The position numbers were made by a program. Below, in pieces: positions 53,201 through 59,200 of a stretch of 64,000 bases of DNA. Position 1 is the stretch's first letter. Every line of letters begins with the position of its first letter. The stretch is taken from NCBI RefSeq assembly GCF_988243305.1, contig NZ_OZ547136.1; one strand, 5' to 3'.

Positions 53201-56200
53201 GCACCGACGCGACGGACGAAAAAGTATTCGTGAAGACCAAAGCAAATTTGAGAGATATCTTCTTCTGTCTTGCAACAGAAGAACAGAAAATCGGGCTTTT
53301 GCGCCTGAATATTGCGGAGAAAAAGCATGGCCGGGAATGACCGCGAGCCAATTGGACGCAAAGGGAAACCGACGCGTCCGGTCAAACAAAAGGTAAGCCG
53401 TCGTCGTTACGAAGATGACGATGATTACGACGATTATGATGACTATGAGGATGAAGAACCGATGCCGCGCAAAGGTAAGGGCAAAGGCAAAGGGCGTAAG
53501 CCTCGTGGCAAACGCGGCTGGCTATGGCTGCTGCTAAAACTGGCTATCGTTTTTGCCGTGCTGATCGCCATTTACGGCGTTTATCTCGATCAAAAAATTC
53601 GCAGCCGTATTGATGGCAAGGTCTGGCAACTGCCTGCGGCAGTTTATGGCCGAATGGTCAACCTTGAGCCAGATATGACCATCAGCAAGAACGAGATGGT
53701 GAAGCTGCTGGAGGCAACCCAGTATCGTCAGGTGTCGAAAATGACCCGTCCTGGCGAATTTACCGTGCAGGCCAACAGCATTGAGATGATCCGCCGTCCG
53801 TTTGATTTCCCGGACAGTAAAGAAGGGCAGGTGCGTGCACGTCTGACCTTTGATGGCGATCATCTGGCGACGATCGTCAATATGGAGAACAACCGTCAGT
53901 TCGGTTTCTTCCGTCTTGATCCGCGTCTGATCACCATGATCTCTTCGCCAAACGGTGAGCAGCGTCTGTTTGTGCCGCGCAGTGGTTTCCCTGATTTGCT
54001 GGTGGATACTTTGCTGGCGACAGAAGACCGCCATTTCTACGAGCATGATGGGATCAGTCTCTACTCCATCGGACGTGCGGTGCTGGCAAACCTGACCGCC
54101 GGACGCACGGTGCAGGGTGCGAGTACGCTGACGCAACAGCTGGTGAAAAACCTGTTCCTCTCCAGCGAGCGCTCTTACTGGCGTAAAGCGAACGAAGCTT
54201 ACATGGCGCTGATCATGGACGCGCGTTACAGCAAAGACCGTATTCTTGAGCTGTATATGAACGAGGTGTATCTCGGTCAGAGCGGCGACAACGAAATCCG
54301 CGGCTTCCCGCTGGCGAGCTTGTATTACTTTGGTCGCCCGGTAGAAGAATTGAGCCTCGACCAGCAGGCGCTGTTGGTGGGTATGGTGAAAGGGGCGTCC
54401 ATCTACAATCCGTGGCGTAACCCGAAACTGGCGCTGGAGCGACGTAATCTGGTGCTGCGTCTGCTGCAACAGCAACAGATTATTGATCAAGAACTCTATG
54501 ACATGTTGAGTGCACGTCCGCTGGGGGTTCAGCCGCGCGGTGGGGTGATCTCTCCACAGCCAGCCTTTATGCAACTGGTGCGTCAGGAGCTGCAGGCAAA
54601 ACTGGGCGATAAGGTAAAAGATCTCTCCGGCGTGAAGATCTTCACTACCTTTGACTCGGTGGCCCAGGACGCGGCAGAAAAAGCCGCCGTGGAAGGCATT
54701 CCGGCACTGAAGAAACAGCGTAAGTTGAGCGATCTTGAAACCGCGATTGTGGTTGTTGACCGCTTTAGCGGTGAAGTTCGTGCGATGGTCGGTGGTTCTG
54801 AGCCGCAGTTTGCGGGCTACAACCGTGCGATGCAGGCGCGTCGTTCGATTGGTTCCCTTGCAAAACCAGCGACTTATCTGACTGCCTTAAGCCAGCCGAA
54901 AATCTATCGTTTGAATACGTGGATTGCCGATGCGCCAATCGCGCTGCGTCAGCCGAATGGCCAGGTCTGGTCACCGCAGAATGATGACCGTCGTTATAGC
55001 GAAAGTGGCAGAGTGATGCTGGTGGATGCGTTGACCCGTTCGATGAACGTGCCGACGGTGAATCTGGGGATGGCGCTGGGGCTGCCTGCGGTTACGGAGA
55101 CCTGGATTAAACTGGGCGTACCGAAAGATCAGCTGCATCCGGTTCCGGCAATGCTGCTGGGGGCGTTGAACTTAACGCCAATCGAAGTGGCGCAGGCATT
55201 CCAGACCATCGCCAGCGGTGGTAACCGTGCACCGCTTTCTGCGCTGCGTTCAGTCATCGCAGAAGATGGCAAGGTGCTGTATCAGAGCTTCCCGCAGGCA
55301 GAACGCGCTGTTCCGGCGCAGGCGGCATATCTGACACTATGGACCATGCAGCAGGTGGTACAACGTGGTACGGGTCGTCAGCTTGGGGCGAAATACCCGA
55401 ACCTGCATCTGGCAGGGAAAACAGGGACTACCAACAATAACGTAGATACCTGGTTTGCGGGCATTGACGGCAGCACGGTGACCATCACCTGGGTAGGCCG
55501 TGATAACAACCAACCGACCAAACTGTATGGAGCCAGCGGGGCAATGTCGATTTATCAGCGTTATCTGGCTAACCAGACGCCAACGCCGCTAAATCTTGTT
55601 CCGCCAGAAGATATTGCAAATATGGGCGTGGACTACGACGGCAACTTTGTTTGCAGCGGTGGTATGCGTGTCTTGCCGGTCTGGACCAGCGATCCGCAAT
55701 CGCTGTGCCAGCAGAGTGAGATGCAGCAGCAACCGTCAGGCAATCCGTTTGATCAGTCTTCTCAGCCGCAGCAACAGCCGCAACAGCAACCTGCTCAGCA
55801 AGAGCAGAAAGACAGCGACGGTGTAGCCGGTTGGATCAAGGATATGTTTGGTAGTAATTAACGTCTAAGCGTGACATACCGGATGGCGAGTTGCCATCCG
55901 GTAAAATAACATCCCACCTAAAGTATTAACCCTTTCTTTTCATCTGGTTGTTTATTAACCCTTCAGGAACGCTCAGATTGCGTACCGCTTGCGAACCCGC
56001 CAGCGTTTCGAATATTATCTTATCTTTATAATAATCATTCTCGTTTACGTTATCATTCACTTTACATCAGAGATATACCAATGGCGCGTTCCAAAACTGC
56101 TCAGCCAAAACACTCACTGCGTAAAATCGCAGTTGTAGTAGCCACAGCGGTTAGCGGCATGTCTGTTTATGCACAGGCAGCGGTTGAACCGAAAGAAGAC

Positions 56201-59200
56201 ACTATCACCGTTACCGCTGCACCTGCGCCGCAAGAAAGCGCATGGGGGCCAGCTGCAACTATTGCGGCGAAGCACTCTGCTACTGCGACTAAAACGGATA
56301 CACCAATTGAAAAAACGCCGCAGTCTATTTCGGTTGTGACAAATGAAGAGATGCAGATGCATCAATTTCAGTCTGTAAAAGAAGCATTAGGTTATACACC
56401 TGGCGTTACGGTTAGCAGTCGTGGTGCTTCTAATACATATGATTTTGTTATTATTCGTGGTTTCTCATCTGTTGGTCTGAATCAAAATAATTACCTTGAT
56501 GGGCTAAAACTTCAGGGCAACTTTTATAACGATGCTGTGATTGATCCTTACATGCTCGAGAGGGTTGAACTGATGCGCGGGCCGACGTCTGTTCTCTATG
56601 GGAAAAGTAATCCTGGTGGGATTATTTCTATGGTGAGTAAGCGTCCGACAACTGAACCCCTGAAAGAAATTCAGTTTAAAATGGGGACGGATAATCTGTT
56701 TCAGACCGGATTCGATTTCAGTGATGCGCTGGATGATAACGGTGAGTTCTCCTACCGTTTGACTGGCCTCGCACGCTCAACAAACGAACAGCAGAAAAAC
56801 TCTGAATCTCAGCGTTATACCATTGCTCCATCATTCTCATGGCGTCCAGACGACAAAACCAATTTTACTTTCCTGTCCTATTTTCAGAACGAACCAGAAA
56901 CGGGTTATTACGGTTGGTTGCCGAAAGAGGGGACCGTTGAGCCATTGCCTAATGGTAAGCGTCTACCGACTGATTTCAATGAAGGTGCATCGAATAATAC
57001 ATACTCCCGTAACCAGAAAATGGTGGGATATAGTTTTGAACATGGTTTTAATGACACCTTCACCGTGCGTCAGAATCTGCGTTTCAGTGAAATGAAAACC
57101 TCACAGAAAAGTGTTTATGGCACAGGGATTGCCAGCGATGGTCATACCTTAAACCGCGGGACAGTGGTGGATAATGAGCGTCTACAAAACTTTAGCGTTG
57201 ATACCCAACTTGAAAGTAAGTTTGCTACAGGTGACGTCGGGCATACTTTGCTGACAGGGGTAGACTTCATGCGTATGCGCAATGATATCAATGCCAGCTT
57301 TGGATCTGCACCATCCATCGATCTTTATAACAAATACCATCCTGAATACTTTGCATTTGGTAGCGCAGAGCCATACCAGATGAATGAAAGCAAACAAACA
57401 GGTATTTATGTTCAGGATCAGGCGGAATGGAATAAATGGGTATTCACTCTGGGGGGACGCTACGATTGGTCTAAGCAAGCGACCACTGTTCGTGAAAACT
57501 CTTATACGCCGACTGAAGGTTATATTGAGCGCAATGATCATCAGTTCACCTGGCGCGGTGGTGTAAATTACTTATTCGATAATGGTATTTCACCTTACTT
57601 TAGCTATAGCCAGTCCTTTGAACCGAGTGCTTTCGATCTGTGGAGCAACCCGCGCGTTTCCTATAAGCCATCGAAAGGTGAACAGTATGAAGCTGGCGTA
57701 AAATATGTTCCGAATGATATGCCGGTCGTTGTTACGGGCGCAGTCTATCAATTGACGAAAACAAATAACCTGACAGCAGACCCAACAAACCCATTAGCGC
57801 AAGTCCCGGCAGGTGAGATTCGCGCTCGTGGTGTGGAACTTGAAGCAAAAGCGGCGTTAAATGCCAATATTAACTTGACGGCTTCTTATACCTACACCGA
57901 TGCGGAATACACCAAAGACACCAATCTCAAAGGTAAAACTCCAGAACAAGTACCGGAGCATATGGCATCTCTCTGGGGGGATTATACCTTCAATGAAGGG
58001 CCGCTTTCTGGTTTAACATTGGGAACAGGTGGTCGTTTTATTGGTTCCAGCTATGGTGATCCGGCAAACACTTTTAAAGTGGGTAGCGCAGCTGTAATGG
58101 ATGCTGTTGTAAAATATGATCTGGCACGCTTTGGTATGGCGGGATCCAGCCTTGCTGTGAACGTCAACAATTTGCTCGATCGTGAGTATGTTGCCAGTTG
58201 CTTCCAGACCTATGGCTGCTTCTGGGGCGCAGAACGTCAGGTCGTTGCAACCGCAACCTTCCGTTTCTAATTTCTCTTTTGGGGCACGGATTTCCGTGCC
58301 CGTTTCACAAGTTGGCTGTTATGCAGGAATACACGAATCATTCCGATACCACTTTTGCACTGCGTAATATCTCCTTTCGTGTGCCCGGGCGCACGCTTTT
58401 GCATCCGCTGTCGTTAACCTTTCCTGCCGGGAAAGTGACCGGTCTGATTGGTCACAACGGTTCTGGTAAATCCACTCTGCTCAAAATGCTTGGCCGTCAT
58501 CAGCCACCGTCGGAAGGCGAAATTCTTCTTGATGCCCAGCCGCTGGAAAGCTGGAGCAGCAAGGCGTTCGCCCGCAAAGTGGCTTATTTACCGCAGCAGC
58601 TTCCTCCGGCAGAAGGGATGACGGTGCGTGAACTGGTGGCGATTGGTCGTTACCCGTGGCATGGCGCACTAGGGCGCTTTGGTGCTGCAGATCGCGAAAA
58701 GGTCGAGGAAGCTATCTCGCTGGTTGGCTTAAAACCGCTGGCGCATCGGTTGGTCGATAGTCTCTCTGGCGGCGAACGTCAGCGGGCGTGGATAGCCATG
58801 CTGGTGGCGCAGGATAGCCGTTGTCTATTGCTCGACGAACCGACCTCGGCGCTGGATATCGCCCACCAGGTTGATGTGCTGGCGCTGGTGCATCGTTTAA
58901 GTCAGGAGCGTGGCCTGACGGTCATTGCCGTGCTGCACGATATCAATATGGCTGCGCGTTACTGTGATTATCTGGTCGCCCTGCGCGGCGGTGAAATGAT
59001 TGCTCAGGGAACGCCTGCGGAAATTATGCGCGGCGAAACCCTCGAAATGATTTATGGCATCCCGATGGGTATTTTGCCGCATCCGGCGGGTGCTGCACCT
59101 GTGAGTTTTGTTTATTGATGAGCGGCTTACCTCTTATTTCGCGCCGTCGACTGTTAACGGCGATGGCGCTTTCTCCGTTGTTATGGCAGATGAATACCGC

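What the first reader, a model, noticed from the sequence alone, without database searches (positions are those of the whole stretch)
56081..58270. Shorter, AT-rich fhuA allele
This FhuA is 729 aa versus the 747 aa I recall for K-12. The N-terminal plug and the C-terminal barrel strands look conserved, but the central portion (roughly 56300-57700) is noticeably AT-richer than flanking genes and differs in segments that correspond to surface loops. FhuA is the receptor for phages T1, T5 and phi80, colicin M, microcin J25 and albomycin, so loop replacement is a plausible outcome of phage or bacteriocin selection and may have been acquired by recombination from another enterobacterium.
Basis: partly seen in the sequence, partly recalled or inferred. 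Interest (0 to 1): 0.45.

Follow-up and report, generated by a model that had tools for sequence, protein, structure and literature searches.

The report
Known minority fhuA receptor allele (E3)
This E. coli carries a known minority version of the FhuA iron-uptake and phage-receptor gene, in which almost the whole gene was replaced long ago by DNA from an unidentified relative, probably changing which phages and bacteriocins can attack the cell.

Summary
The ORF at 56081-58270 is a real, intact 729-aa FhuA in the normal hrpB-mrcB-fhuACDB locus. K-12 FhuA has 747 aa, and protein identity is 77%.

The divergence is not confined to loops. A 1.94-kb block (56270-58210, codons 64-710) is saturated at synonymous sites. 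The first 63 and last 20 codons and all flanking genes are ordinary E. coli DNA.

The block has GC 0.448 and GC3 0.41. That is low against its flanks, but not unique in the window.

The allele matches cluster "E3" of Wang et al. 2018, so it is already known. It occurs in 562 of 5426 complete E. coli genomes (10.4%). The junctions are the same in all six carriers compared.

Its protein is 95% identical to the Salmonella "S2" FhuA, but 4-fold sites are near saturation (0.68). K-12 against its Salmonella counterpart gives 0.50, like the flanking genes (0.45-0.51). E3 is therefore an old import from an unidentified low-GC3 donor, not a recent Salmonella transfer.

Loops L4-L8 are remodelled. The TonB box, L3, L10, L11 and most ferrichrome-pocket residues are kept. 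I predict retained ferrichrome uptake and altered sensitivity to T1, T5, phi80, colicin M and microcin J25. None of this was tested here.

The parts
55989..56018 (+). Sigma-70 promoter-like site upstream of fhuA, in the E. coli-type flank. It was not replaced.
   Evidence: Consensus scan gives 9/12, no better than shuffled sequence, so this is weak evidence. The region is 97-100% identical to K-12.
56024..56042 (+). Fur-box-like sequence CTTTATAATAATCATTCTC (14/19 to the consensus), in the E. coli-type flank.
   Evidence: Python scan. Iron/Fur regulation of fhuA is established knowledge and was not tested here.
56081..58270 (+). fhuA ORF: 729 aa, allele class E3.
   Evidence: The exact protein is on at least 1000 public contigs.
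56081..56269 (+). Native E. coli 5' segment: signal peptide, the first 30 mature residues and the TonB box (56198-56212).
   Evidence: 1 nt difference from K-12 and 25-28 from Salmonella over 189 nt. TonB box DTITV is conserved.
56270..58210 (+). Imported divergent core (codons 64-710). GC 0.448, GC3 0.41.
   Evidence: 562 nt differences from K-12 in 1941 nt. pS is 0.78 and dN 0.19. The same boundaries occur in six E. coli/Escherichia carriers.
57131..57145 (+). Remnant of loop L4 (A351-H355). 17 residues of K-12 L4 are missing, including the Cys318-Cys329 pair.
   Evidence: Alignments. L4 boundaries 318-339 come from PMC10373560 Table S1.
57308..57364 (+). Loop L5, 7 residues shorter. 37% identical to K-12.
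57470..57544 (+). Loop L6 region with a 5-residue insertion. Boundaries are approximate.
   Evidence: The loop assignment agrees with Wang et al. (Indel 5 = L6) and with the strand pattern of a low-confidence AF2 model.
57626..57667 (+). Loop L7 with a 2-residue insertion. 27% identical to K-12.
   Evidence: The EL7 end (Ser516) comes from PMC9586334.
57761..57817 (+). Loop L8, same length. 10 of 19 residues are identical to K-12. Segment 552-558, DPEGSFF in K-12, is DPTNPLA here.
   Evidence: EL8 = Thr546-Glu564 from PMC9586334.
58211..58270 (+). Native E. coli 3' end (last 20 codons and the stop).
   Evidence: 1 nt difference from K-12 over 60 nt.

Best explanation
This is a functional fhuA gene of the known E3 allele class. 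Codons 64-710 of the resident E. coli gene were replaced, in what looks like a single old homologous-recombination event. The incoming DNA came from an unidentified enterobacterium with lower GC3 that carried the widespread 729-aa 'short-L4' type of FhuA. The crossovers fell in the conserved 5' end (about 56251-56270) and 3' end (about 58207-58210). The native promoter, Fur box, signal peptide, TonB box and last barrel strand were therefore kept.

The cassette has since persisted in E. coli at about 10% and occurs in several lineages and in a sister Escherichia lineage. It probably moves by recombination in the conserved flanks.

Functionally it should still import ferrichrome through TonB. 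It presents a different outer surface: L4 is truncated by 17 residues, L5 is shorter, L6 and L7 are longer, and L8 is re-sequenced. It is therefore expected to escape phages and bacteriocins adapted to the K-12-type surface (T1, T5, phi80, colicin M, microcin J25) and to expose the cell to agents adapted to the Salmonella-type surface.

Shown: the sequence anatomy, junctions, divergence, distribution and family membership. Inferred: the single event, the mode of spread, the transport competence and all sensitivity phenotypes.
For: - Junctions and divergence: identity to K-12 drops from 97-100% to 56-84% between 56270 and 58210. Core pS is 0.78 and dN 0.19. The five flanking genes have dS 0.09-0.13 and dN at most 0.009.
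- Shared junctions in the window, HS, APEC O78, an O78:H4 APEC strain, MS14385 and L006.
- Age: E3 copies differ from each other by 20-39 of 1941 nt (4-fold divergence 0.02-0.065). This is similar to or below the adjacent fhuC (0.026-0.138).
- Frequency: 562 of 5426 complete genomes. No 90-95% identity class and no sign of hybrids.
- Not a recent Salmonella import: E3 against S2 is 95% identical in protein, but 4-fold divergence is 0.676 (saturation 0.746; LogDet 1.47). E1 against S1 gives 0.503 (LogDet 1.00). mrcB and fhuC between the species give 0.45-0.51. The z-scores are 4.3 and 6.1.
- Foreign composition: GC3 is 0.412. E1, E2, S1 and S2 have 0.547-0.567. It is the lowest of 85 homologs.
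- Family: the NCBIfam FhuA equivalog scores 1409 bits against a cut-off of 803. Pfam finds Plug and barrel domains.
- Function-relevant residues: TonB box, R81, G99, Y116, Y244, W246, Y313 and F391 are conserved. L3, L10 and L11 are 91-96% identical to K-12. L4-L8 are 44% identical with 31 gap positions.
- Literature: the class is described as E3/S2 (10.1101/320069). Loop dependencies come from PMC10373560, PMC9586334 and PMC8469651. The Typhimurium-type FhuA cannot import MccJ25 (PMC3652737). MccJ25-resistant natural E. coli show 'fhuA sequence divergence' (PMC10926693).
Against: - No donor was found. The closest non-Escherichia DNA is about 80% identical.
- Sharp boundaries and shared junctions would also arise under long-term balancing selection with flank homogenisation.
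- 4-fold divergences are close to saturation and rest on about 290 sites. After LogDet correction the excess over the species split is about 1.5-fold, with wide uncertainty.
- Two ferrichrome-pocket residues differ (Q100L, Y315T), so unchanged substrate affinity is not guaranteed.
- No phenotype was measured for E3. The E. coli strains in PMC10926693 were not typed to an allele class.
- The AF2 model was low-confidence (pLDDT 52), so loop geometry is not modelled.
Confidence: 0.75

Rival explanations
1. Ancient balanced (trans-species) polymorphism. Both FhuA classes were present in the common ancestor of Escherichia and Salmonella. E3 has been inherited vertically in E. coli ever since, and recombination has homogenised everything outside the selected core.
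For: Both genera carry both classes: E1/S1 at 92.5% and E3/S2 at 95% protein identity (PMC9961651). Boundaries are sharp with homogenised flanks. Citrobacter, Lelliottia and Trabulsiella also carry both classes.
Against: E3's GC3 (0.41) is far from the E. coli value that E1 and E2 have reached (0.55), whereas S2 matches S1 in Salmonella (0.567 and 0.565). E3-S2 4-fold divergence (0.676) exceeds the species-level value (0.45-0.51), with z = 4-6. E3 diversity within E. coli is at most about 2%.
Confidence: 0.13
2. Recent horizontal transfer of fhuA from Salmonella enterica, or from another sampled genus, into E. coli.
For: The best protein hit is Salmonella FhuA: 95% identity, the same length, and the same 90% cluster.
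Against: Nucleotide identity is only 79.9% and 4-fold sites are near saturation. No other species representative, MAG, plasmid or phage is closer than 80.5%. Carriers within E. coli have already diverged by 1-2%.
Confidence: 0.04
3. In-situ rapid divergence of the resident E. coli gene under positive selection on the surface loops, without any import.
For: fhuA has been reported as positively selected in E. coli (cited in 10.1101/320069). The loops are the most changed parts.
Against: Synonymous sites are saturated across the whole core, including the plug and transmembrane strands. The boundaries are abrupt. GC3 is shifted throughout. The protein is 95% identical to a class found in many genera.
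Confidence: 0.02

Closest known systems
E. coli FhuA cluster E3 (Wang, Chen, Hu, Zhu, White, Koster 2018; bioRxiv 10.1101/320069; published in Infect Immun 86:e00573-18)
   Same: Same indel signature. It lacks their Indel 3 (L4) and Indel 4 (L5) and has Indel 5 (L6) and Indel 6 (L7). It groups with Salmonella S2 and is a minority type in E. coli.
   Different: Nothing in the allele itself differs. Added here: nucleotide junctions, synonymous-site and GC3 evidence, frequency in 5426 genomes, and absence of hybrids. The data argue against their reading of short protein-tree branches in their Salmonella analysis as 'recent acquisition', at least for the E3/S2 pair.
Salmonella enterica FhuA type S2 (729 aa; found in records labelled Typhimurium, Infantis and others)
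   Same: Same length. 95% protein identity, with L4-L8 93% identical and L8 identical. The pocket substitutions Q100L and Y315T are shared, and the L4 disulfide is absent in both.
   Different: DNA is only 79.9% identical and 4-fold divergence is 0.68. GC3 is 0.567 against 0.41. The first 63 and last 20 codons are species-specific.
E. coli K-12 FhuA (type E1; PDB 1BY3, 2FCP, 1QFG, 8A8C, 8B14, 4CU4)
   Same: Same locus, promoter region, signal peptide and TonB box. Same domain organisation. L3, L10 and L11 are conserved, and so are 7 of 9 ferrichrome-pocket residues checked.
   Different: 77% identity overall. 18 residues shorter. L4 lacks 17 residues and L4-L8 are 44% identical. Q100L and Y315T. 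Every solved FhuA structure is of the K-12 type.

Membership tests
FhuA (ferrichrome porin, TonB-dependent transporter) | Scores above the curated cut-off of the NCBIfam equivalog model NF007465 | tested here: met
   1409.2 bits against a cut-off of 803, full length 1-729.
FhuA (ferrichrome porin, TonB-dependent transporter) | N-terminal Plug domain plus a TonB-dependent receptor beta-barrel | tested here: met
   Pfam PF07715 at residues 76-181 and PF00593 at 254-698. Best PDB sequence matches are all FhuA, with E-value 0 over residues 34-729.
FhuA (ferrichrome porin, TonB-dependent transporter) | TonB box near the mature N-terminus | tested here: met
   DTITV at mature residues 7-11, identical to K-12.
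FhuA (ferrichrome porin, TonB-dependent transporter) | Position as the first gene of fhuACDB, downstream of mrcB | tested here: met
   ORF order is hrpB-mrcB-fhuA-fhuC-fhuD-fhuB.
FhuA (ferrichrome porin, TonB-dependent transporter) | Ferrichrome-binding pocket residues conserved | tested here: inconclusive
   R81, G99, Y116, Y244, W246, Y313 and F391 are conserved. Q100 is L and Y315 is T, as in Salmonella S2. R81, Q100 and Y116 are named in PMC11357680, and Y244 and W246 in PMC10373560. The remaining residues come from my own recollection of the crystal-structure papers.
FhuA (ferrichrome porin, TonB-dependent transporter) | 22-stranded barrel with an internal plug (3D fold) | tested here: inconclusive
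   The AF2 model had mean pLDDT 51.7 and was not used for fold search. The fold is inferred from 77% sequence identity to solved FhuA.
FhuA (ferrichrome porin, TonB-dependent transporter) | Transports ferrichrome or albomycin in a TonB-dependent way | not testable with these tools
   Needs growth-promotion and uptake assays.
FhuA allele cluster E3 (Wang et al. 2018) | No insertion at Indel 3 (L4) or Indel 4 (L5); insertions present at Indel 5 (L6) and Indel 6 (L7); groups with Salmonella S2 | tested here: met
   Relative to K-12: -17 in L4, -7 in L5, +5 in L6, +2 in L7. 95% identical to S2 and in the same 90% cluster. Definitions taken.
FhuA allele cluster E3 (Wang et al. 2018) | 'Sub1' substitution patch that separates E3 from S2 | tested here: inconclusive
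   The window differs from S2 at K-12 mature positions 370-371 (V/I, G/D), which is about where their Sub1 (alignment positions 415-417, turn T4) should fall. Their Table S2 is not held, so the exact correspondence is unverified.

The most novel reading that the evidence does not exclude
The K-12-type FhuA is the vertically inherited ortholog. E3 is a single, old, cassette-like import from an unsampled low-GC3 enterobacterial lineage. It has since behaved as a discrete, non-hybridising receptor type, with no E1/E3 mosaics in 5426 genomes. Its protein, surface loops included, is held almost constant across saturated synonymous distance. On this reading FhuA diversity consists of a few stable, ancient surface types kept at intermediate frequency by frequency-dependent phage and bacteriocin pressure, rather than a continuous loop-by-loop arms race.
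Probability: 0.4. Interest if true: 0.4.

Novelty: already known. Interest (0 to 1): 0.25.

Why it matters
FhuA is the terminal receptor for many siphophages (T1-, T5-, phi80- and SO1-like) and the entry gate for colicin M, microcin J25, albomycin and siderophore-drug conjugates. About one complete E. coli genome in ten, including the commensal HS and APEC O78, carries this alternative surface. Host-range predictions, phage cocktails and Trojan-horse antibiotics validated on K-12-type FhuA may therefore fail on these strains. The allele itself is already catalogued. The practical value of this analysis lies in the exact cassette boundaries (56270-58210), which define a clean allele-swap experiment. 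It also shows that the similarity to Salmonella FhuA reflects an old shared type, not recent exchange.

Tried and rejected
1. AlphaFold2 with a 38-sequence alignment gave mean pLDDT 51.7. I did not use it for fold search or loop geometry. Its strand order was used only as a consistency check for the L6 and L7 assignment.
2. Donor search. The species-representative genome scan, named protein clusters, the unnamed 91% protein P0002 and its MAG locus L092, and plasmids and phages yielded nothing closer than about 80% nt. The 'plasmid' hits are Mb-sized, chromosome-like records. The 'phage' hits are a Salmonella contig and a 1.8-kb unannotated fragment.
3. The 80-90% identity band was suspected to be E1/E3 mosaics. 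The one example listed is a low-coverage match to another class (H161, 37% coverage).
4. Key primary papers are not held: Killmann 1998 (PMC107368), Endriss & Braun 2004 (PMC438571) and the published Wang 2018 (PMC6204707). Loop boundaries were taken from PMC10373560 Table S1 and PMC9586334 instead. What I recall of Killmann's phenotypes for the S. typhimurium FhuA is not used as evidence.
5. NG86 pS exceeds 0.75 for the core, so dS is undefined. I replaced it with 4-fold-site p-distance and LogDet.
6. Residues 'F702' and 'F566' quoted from memory or from His-tagged numbering did not map to Phe in K-12 numbering. I dropped them.
7. The phylogroup and sequence type of the window strain were not determined. 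The best complete genomes are only 99.3% identical over 24 kb.
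Full report
OBSERVATION

The window holds an intact ORF at 56081-58270 (+) of 729 aa. It lies in the canonical E. coli order hrpB-mrcB-fhuA-fhuC-fhuD-fhuB-hemL. K-12 FhuA, taken from NC_000913, is 747 aa. The two proteins are 77.4% identical with 32 gap columns.

GC is 0.460 for the gene and 0.448 for the divergent core. The five flanking genes have 0.55-0.59 and K-12 fhuA has 0.512. GC3 is 0.416 against 0.535 in K-12 fhuA.

The dip is clear locally but not extreme for the window. The z-score is -1.57, and 9% of same-size windows are as low. 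fhuA has the 5th-lowest GC3 of 40 mapped genes, and only yad fimbrial genes are lower. fhuA is below its own flanks in nearly all 85 homologous loci examined, so part of the dip is generic to the gene.

ANATOMY OF THE DIVERGENCE

A locus-wide alignment with K-12 shows 97-100% identity up to about 56270. Identity is 56-84% from there to 58210, then 94-100% again.

Dense mismatches start at 56270, with a single one at 56251, and end at 58210. Both junctions lie inside the ORF.

- Codons 1-63 (signal peptide, the first 30 mature residues and the TonB box) differ from K-12 by 1 nt. They differ from Salmonella by 25-28 nt.
- The last 20 codons also differ from K-12 by 1 nt, and from Salmonella by 3-4 nt.
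- In the core, NG86 pS is 0.78, beyond saturation, and dN is 0.19.
- hrpB, mrcB, fhuC, fhuD and fhuB have dS 0.09-0.13 and dN at most 0.009.

The change is therefore a replacement of codons 64-710, not a set of loop edits. By region, using K-12 loop boundaries from PMC10373560 Table S1 and PMC9586334:

| Region | Identity to K-12 |
|---|---|
| Plug 31-160 | 78% |
| Barrel outside loops | 78% |
| L3 | 96% |
| L10 | 93% |
| L11 | 91% |
| L4 | 17 residues missing, including Cys318 and Cys329 |
| L5 | 37%, 7 residues shorter |
| L6 | 46%, 5 residues longer |
| L7 | 27%, 2 residues longer |
| L8 | 53% |

WHAT IT IS

Family membership is clear. The NCBIfam FhuA equivalog scores 1409 bits against a cut-off of 803. 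Pfam finds the Plug and barrel domains. The best PDB sequence matches are all E. coli FhuA entries.

The exact protein is already in public collections on at least 1000 contigs, named 'ferrichrome porin FhuA [Escherichia coli]'.

The allele class is described. Wang et al. (bioRxiv 10.1101/320069; published in Infect Immun 2018) divide E. coli FhuA into clusters E1-E4 and Salmonella FhuA into S1 and S2. Their E3/S2 group lacks the L4 and L5 insertions and has L6 and L7 insertions. That is exactly the pattern seen here. The finding is a member of a known allele class.

DISTRIBUTION

A mid-core probe (57100-57850) with no megablast similarity to other classes hits 562 of 5426 complete E. coli genomes (10.4%). 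Of these, 232 are at 99% or more and 330 are near 98%. Carriers include the commensal HS, APEC O78 and an O78:H4 APEC strain.

The full-gene search gives the same 562 genomes at 95% or more, and nothing between 90% and 95%. The one 80-90% record listed is a short partial match to another class. I therefore see no E1/E3 intragenic mosaics.

Six carriers compared in detail share the same junctions, at 56251/56270 and 58207/58210. Their cores differ by 20-39 of 1941 nt, with 4-fold divergence 0.02-0.065. That is about the same as or less than their fhuC genes (0.026-0.138).

L006 is a divergent Escherichia lineage labelled E. coli. Its core is closer to the window (0.065) than its fhuC is (0.138). 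This suggests the cassette moved between Escherichia lineages.

ORIGIN

The best protein hit is a 729-aa Salmonella enterica FhuA at 95% identity, in the same 90% cluster. The DNA is only 79.9% identical.

Four-fold degenerate sites give the following:

| Comparison | 4-fold divergence | LogDet |
|---|---|---|
| E3 - S2 (fhuA core) | 0.676 (saturation 0.746) | 1.47 |
| E1 (K-12) - S1 (747-aa Salmonella, L090) | 0.503 | 1.00 |
| mrcB and fhuC, E. coli - Salmonella | 0.45-0.51 | 0.93-1.12 |

E3-S2 exceeds E1-S1 with z = 4.3 and exceeds mrcB with z = 6.1. E1-S1 does not differ from mrcB (z = 1.1).

The K-12 type thus behaves as the vertical ortholog of its Salmonella counterpart. E3 is at least as far from S2 as the two species are from each other. 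It also has a foreign GC3: 0.41, against 0.547-0.567 for E1, E2, S1 and S2, and the lowest of 85 homologs.

No species-representative genome, named cluster, MAG, plasmid or phage is closer than about 80.5% nt, or has 4-fold divergence below 0.56. The donor is unknown.

The 729-aa class is old and widespread. A short L4 (A-x-D-G-H) and characteristic L7 and L8 motifs are shared by Salmonella, Citrobacter, Lelliottia, Superficieibacter, Kluyvera, Enterobacter, Dryocola and a MAG. L5 and L6 vary moderately.

Within the class, loops L4-L8 are 74-93% identical to the window. The rest of the barrel is 90-95% identical.

HOW IT MOST LIKELY WORKS

Shown:
- The native regulatory region is retained. It holds a promoter-like site and a 14/19 Fur-box-like site at 56024-56042.
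- The signal peptide and TonB box are retained.
- Loops L3, L10 and L11 are conserved.
- Seven of nine ferrichrome-pocket residues checked are conserved. Q100L and Y315T are shared with S2.

Inferred:
- TonB-dependent ferrichrome uptake is retained.
- The outer surface is changed in the loops reported to matter for T1 (L4), for T5, phi80 and SO1-like phages (L8), and for colicin M (L3, L7, L8). T5 pb5 makes most of its hydrogen bonds to EL4, EL5 and EL8 (PMC10373560, PMC9586334, PMC8469651).
- For microcin J25 there is indirect evidence. S. Typhimurium FhuA cannot mediate MccJ25 uptake, and supplying E. coli fhuA makes resistant Salmonella hypersensitive (PMC3652737). Typhimurium-labelled FhuA sequences fall in the S2 cluster.
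- MccJ25-resistant natural E. coli show 'fhuA sequence divergence', but their allele class is not stated (PMC10926693).
- I therefore predict reduced or absent sensitivity to K-12-adapted FhuA ligands and possible sensitivity to Salmonella-adapted ones. None of this was measured.

The persistence of E3 at about 10%, in several lineages and with species-level internal diversity, fits frequency-dependent selection. That too is inference.

RIVALS

- A trans-species balanced polymorphism would also give sharp boundaries. It is disfavoured by the GC3 disequilibrium and by the excess synonymous distance, but it is not excluded (0.13).
- Recent transfer from Salmonella or another sampled genus is effectively refuted by the synonymous-site data (0.04).
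- In-situ positive selection is refuted by saturation across the plug and strands (0.02).

VERDICT

The allele is already known as E3.

This analysis adds:
- the junction coordinates;
- the frequency in complete genomes;
- the absence of hybrids;
- evidence that K-12-type FhuA is the vertical ortholog, whereas E3 is an old import from an unidentified low-GC3 donor.

Interest is low to moderate.

Noticed in passing
window 8284-11064 (ORFs 8722-10503 + and 10503-10799 +): A low-GC segment of about 2.8 kb lies in the aroP-pdhR intergenic region and is absent from the nearest complete genome (Ecol_545). It encodes a 593-aa fusion of a T6SS Hcp domain, an S-type pyocin domain and a colicin/pyocin DNase domain. 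A 98-aa colicin/pyocin immunity protein follows. It is probably an Hcp-borne T6SS toxin-immunity pair.
   Followed up: partly
window 39078-45603: The yad-type chaperone-usher fimbrial operon (adhesin, minor subunits, usher, chaperone) has the lowest GC3 in the window (0.32-0.50), lower than fhuA.
   Followed up: no
L006 1-2784 (Escherichia 'coli' SCPM-O-B-8794, a GTDB species representative): In this divergent Escherichia lineage the DNA directly upstream of the fhuA promoter is not mrcB. It is the end of a chaperone-usher fimbrial operon (usher C-terminus plus an adhesin-like ORF). Its E3 core is closer to the window than its fhuC is.
   Followed up: partly
hits H1/H103 (NZ_CP070157.1) and H4/H90 (NZ_CP182371.1): Some E3 carriers have inactivated copies. 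One has an IS1 insertion in an otherwise 100%-identical fhuA. Another has a truncated gene annotated only as 'TonB-dependent siderophore receptor'.
   Followed up: no
window 40000-64000 compared with complete E. coli genomes: The best complete genomes are only 99.3% identical over 24 kb, although fhuA itself is 100% identical in many. Differences cluster in patches, for example kb 20-21, 29-30 and 59-62. This suggests a mosaic recombination history for the region.
   Followed up: no
L091 (E. coli, fhuA 4001-6250) and hit H161 (NZ_CP121157.1): Further E. coli fhuA classes were seen. One is a 749/752-aa type (E2-like) with a longer L4 and 4-fold divergence 0.32 from K-12. Another is a class of about 2196 bp that matches the window over only 37%.
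   Followed up: partly
hit H176 (OR845670.1, 'Escherichia phage ECO95 1-6-1', 1817 bp): An unannotated 1.8-kb record filed as a phage matches the fhuA core at 79% over 1240 nt. It is probably a bacterial fhuA fragment deposited under a phage name.
   Followed up: no
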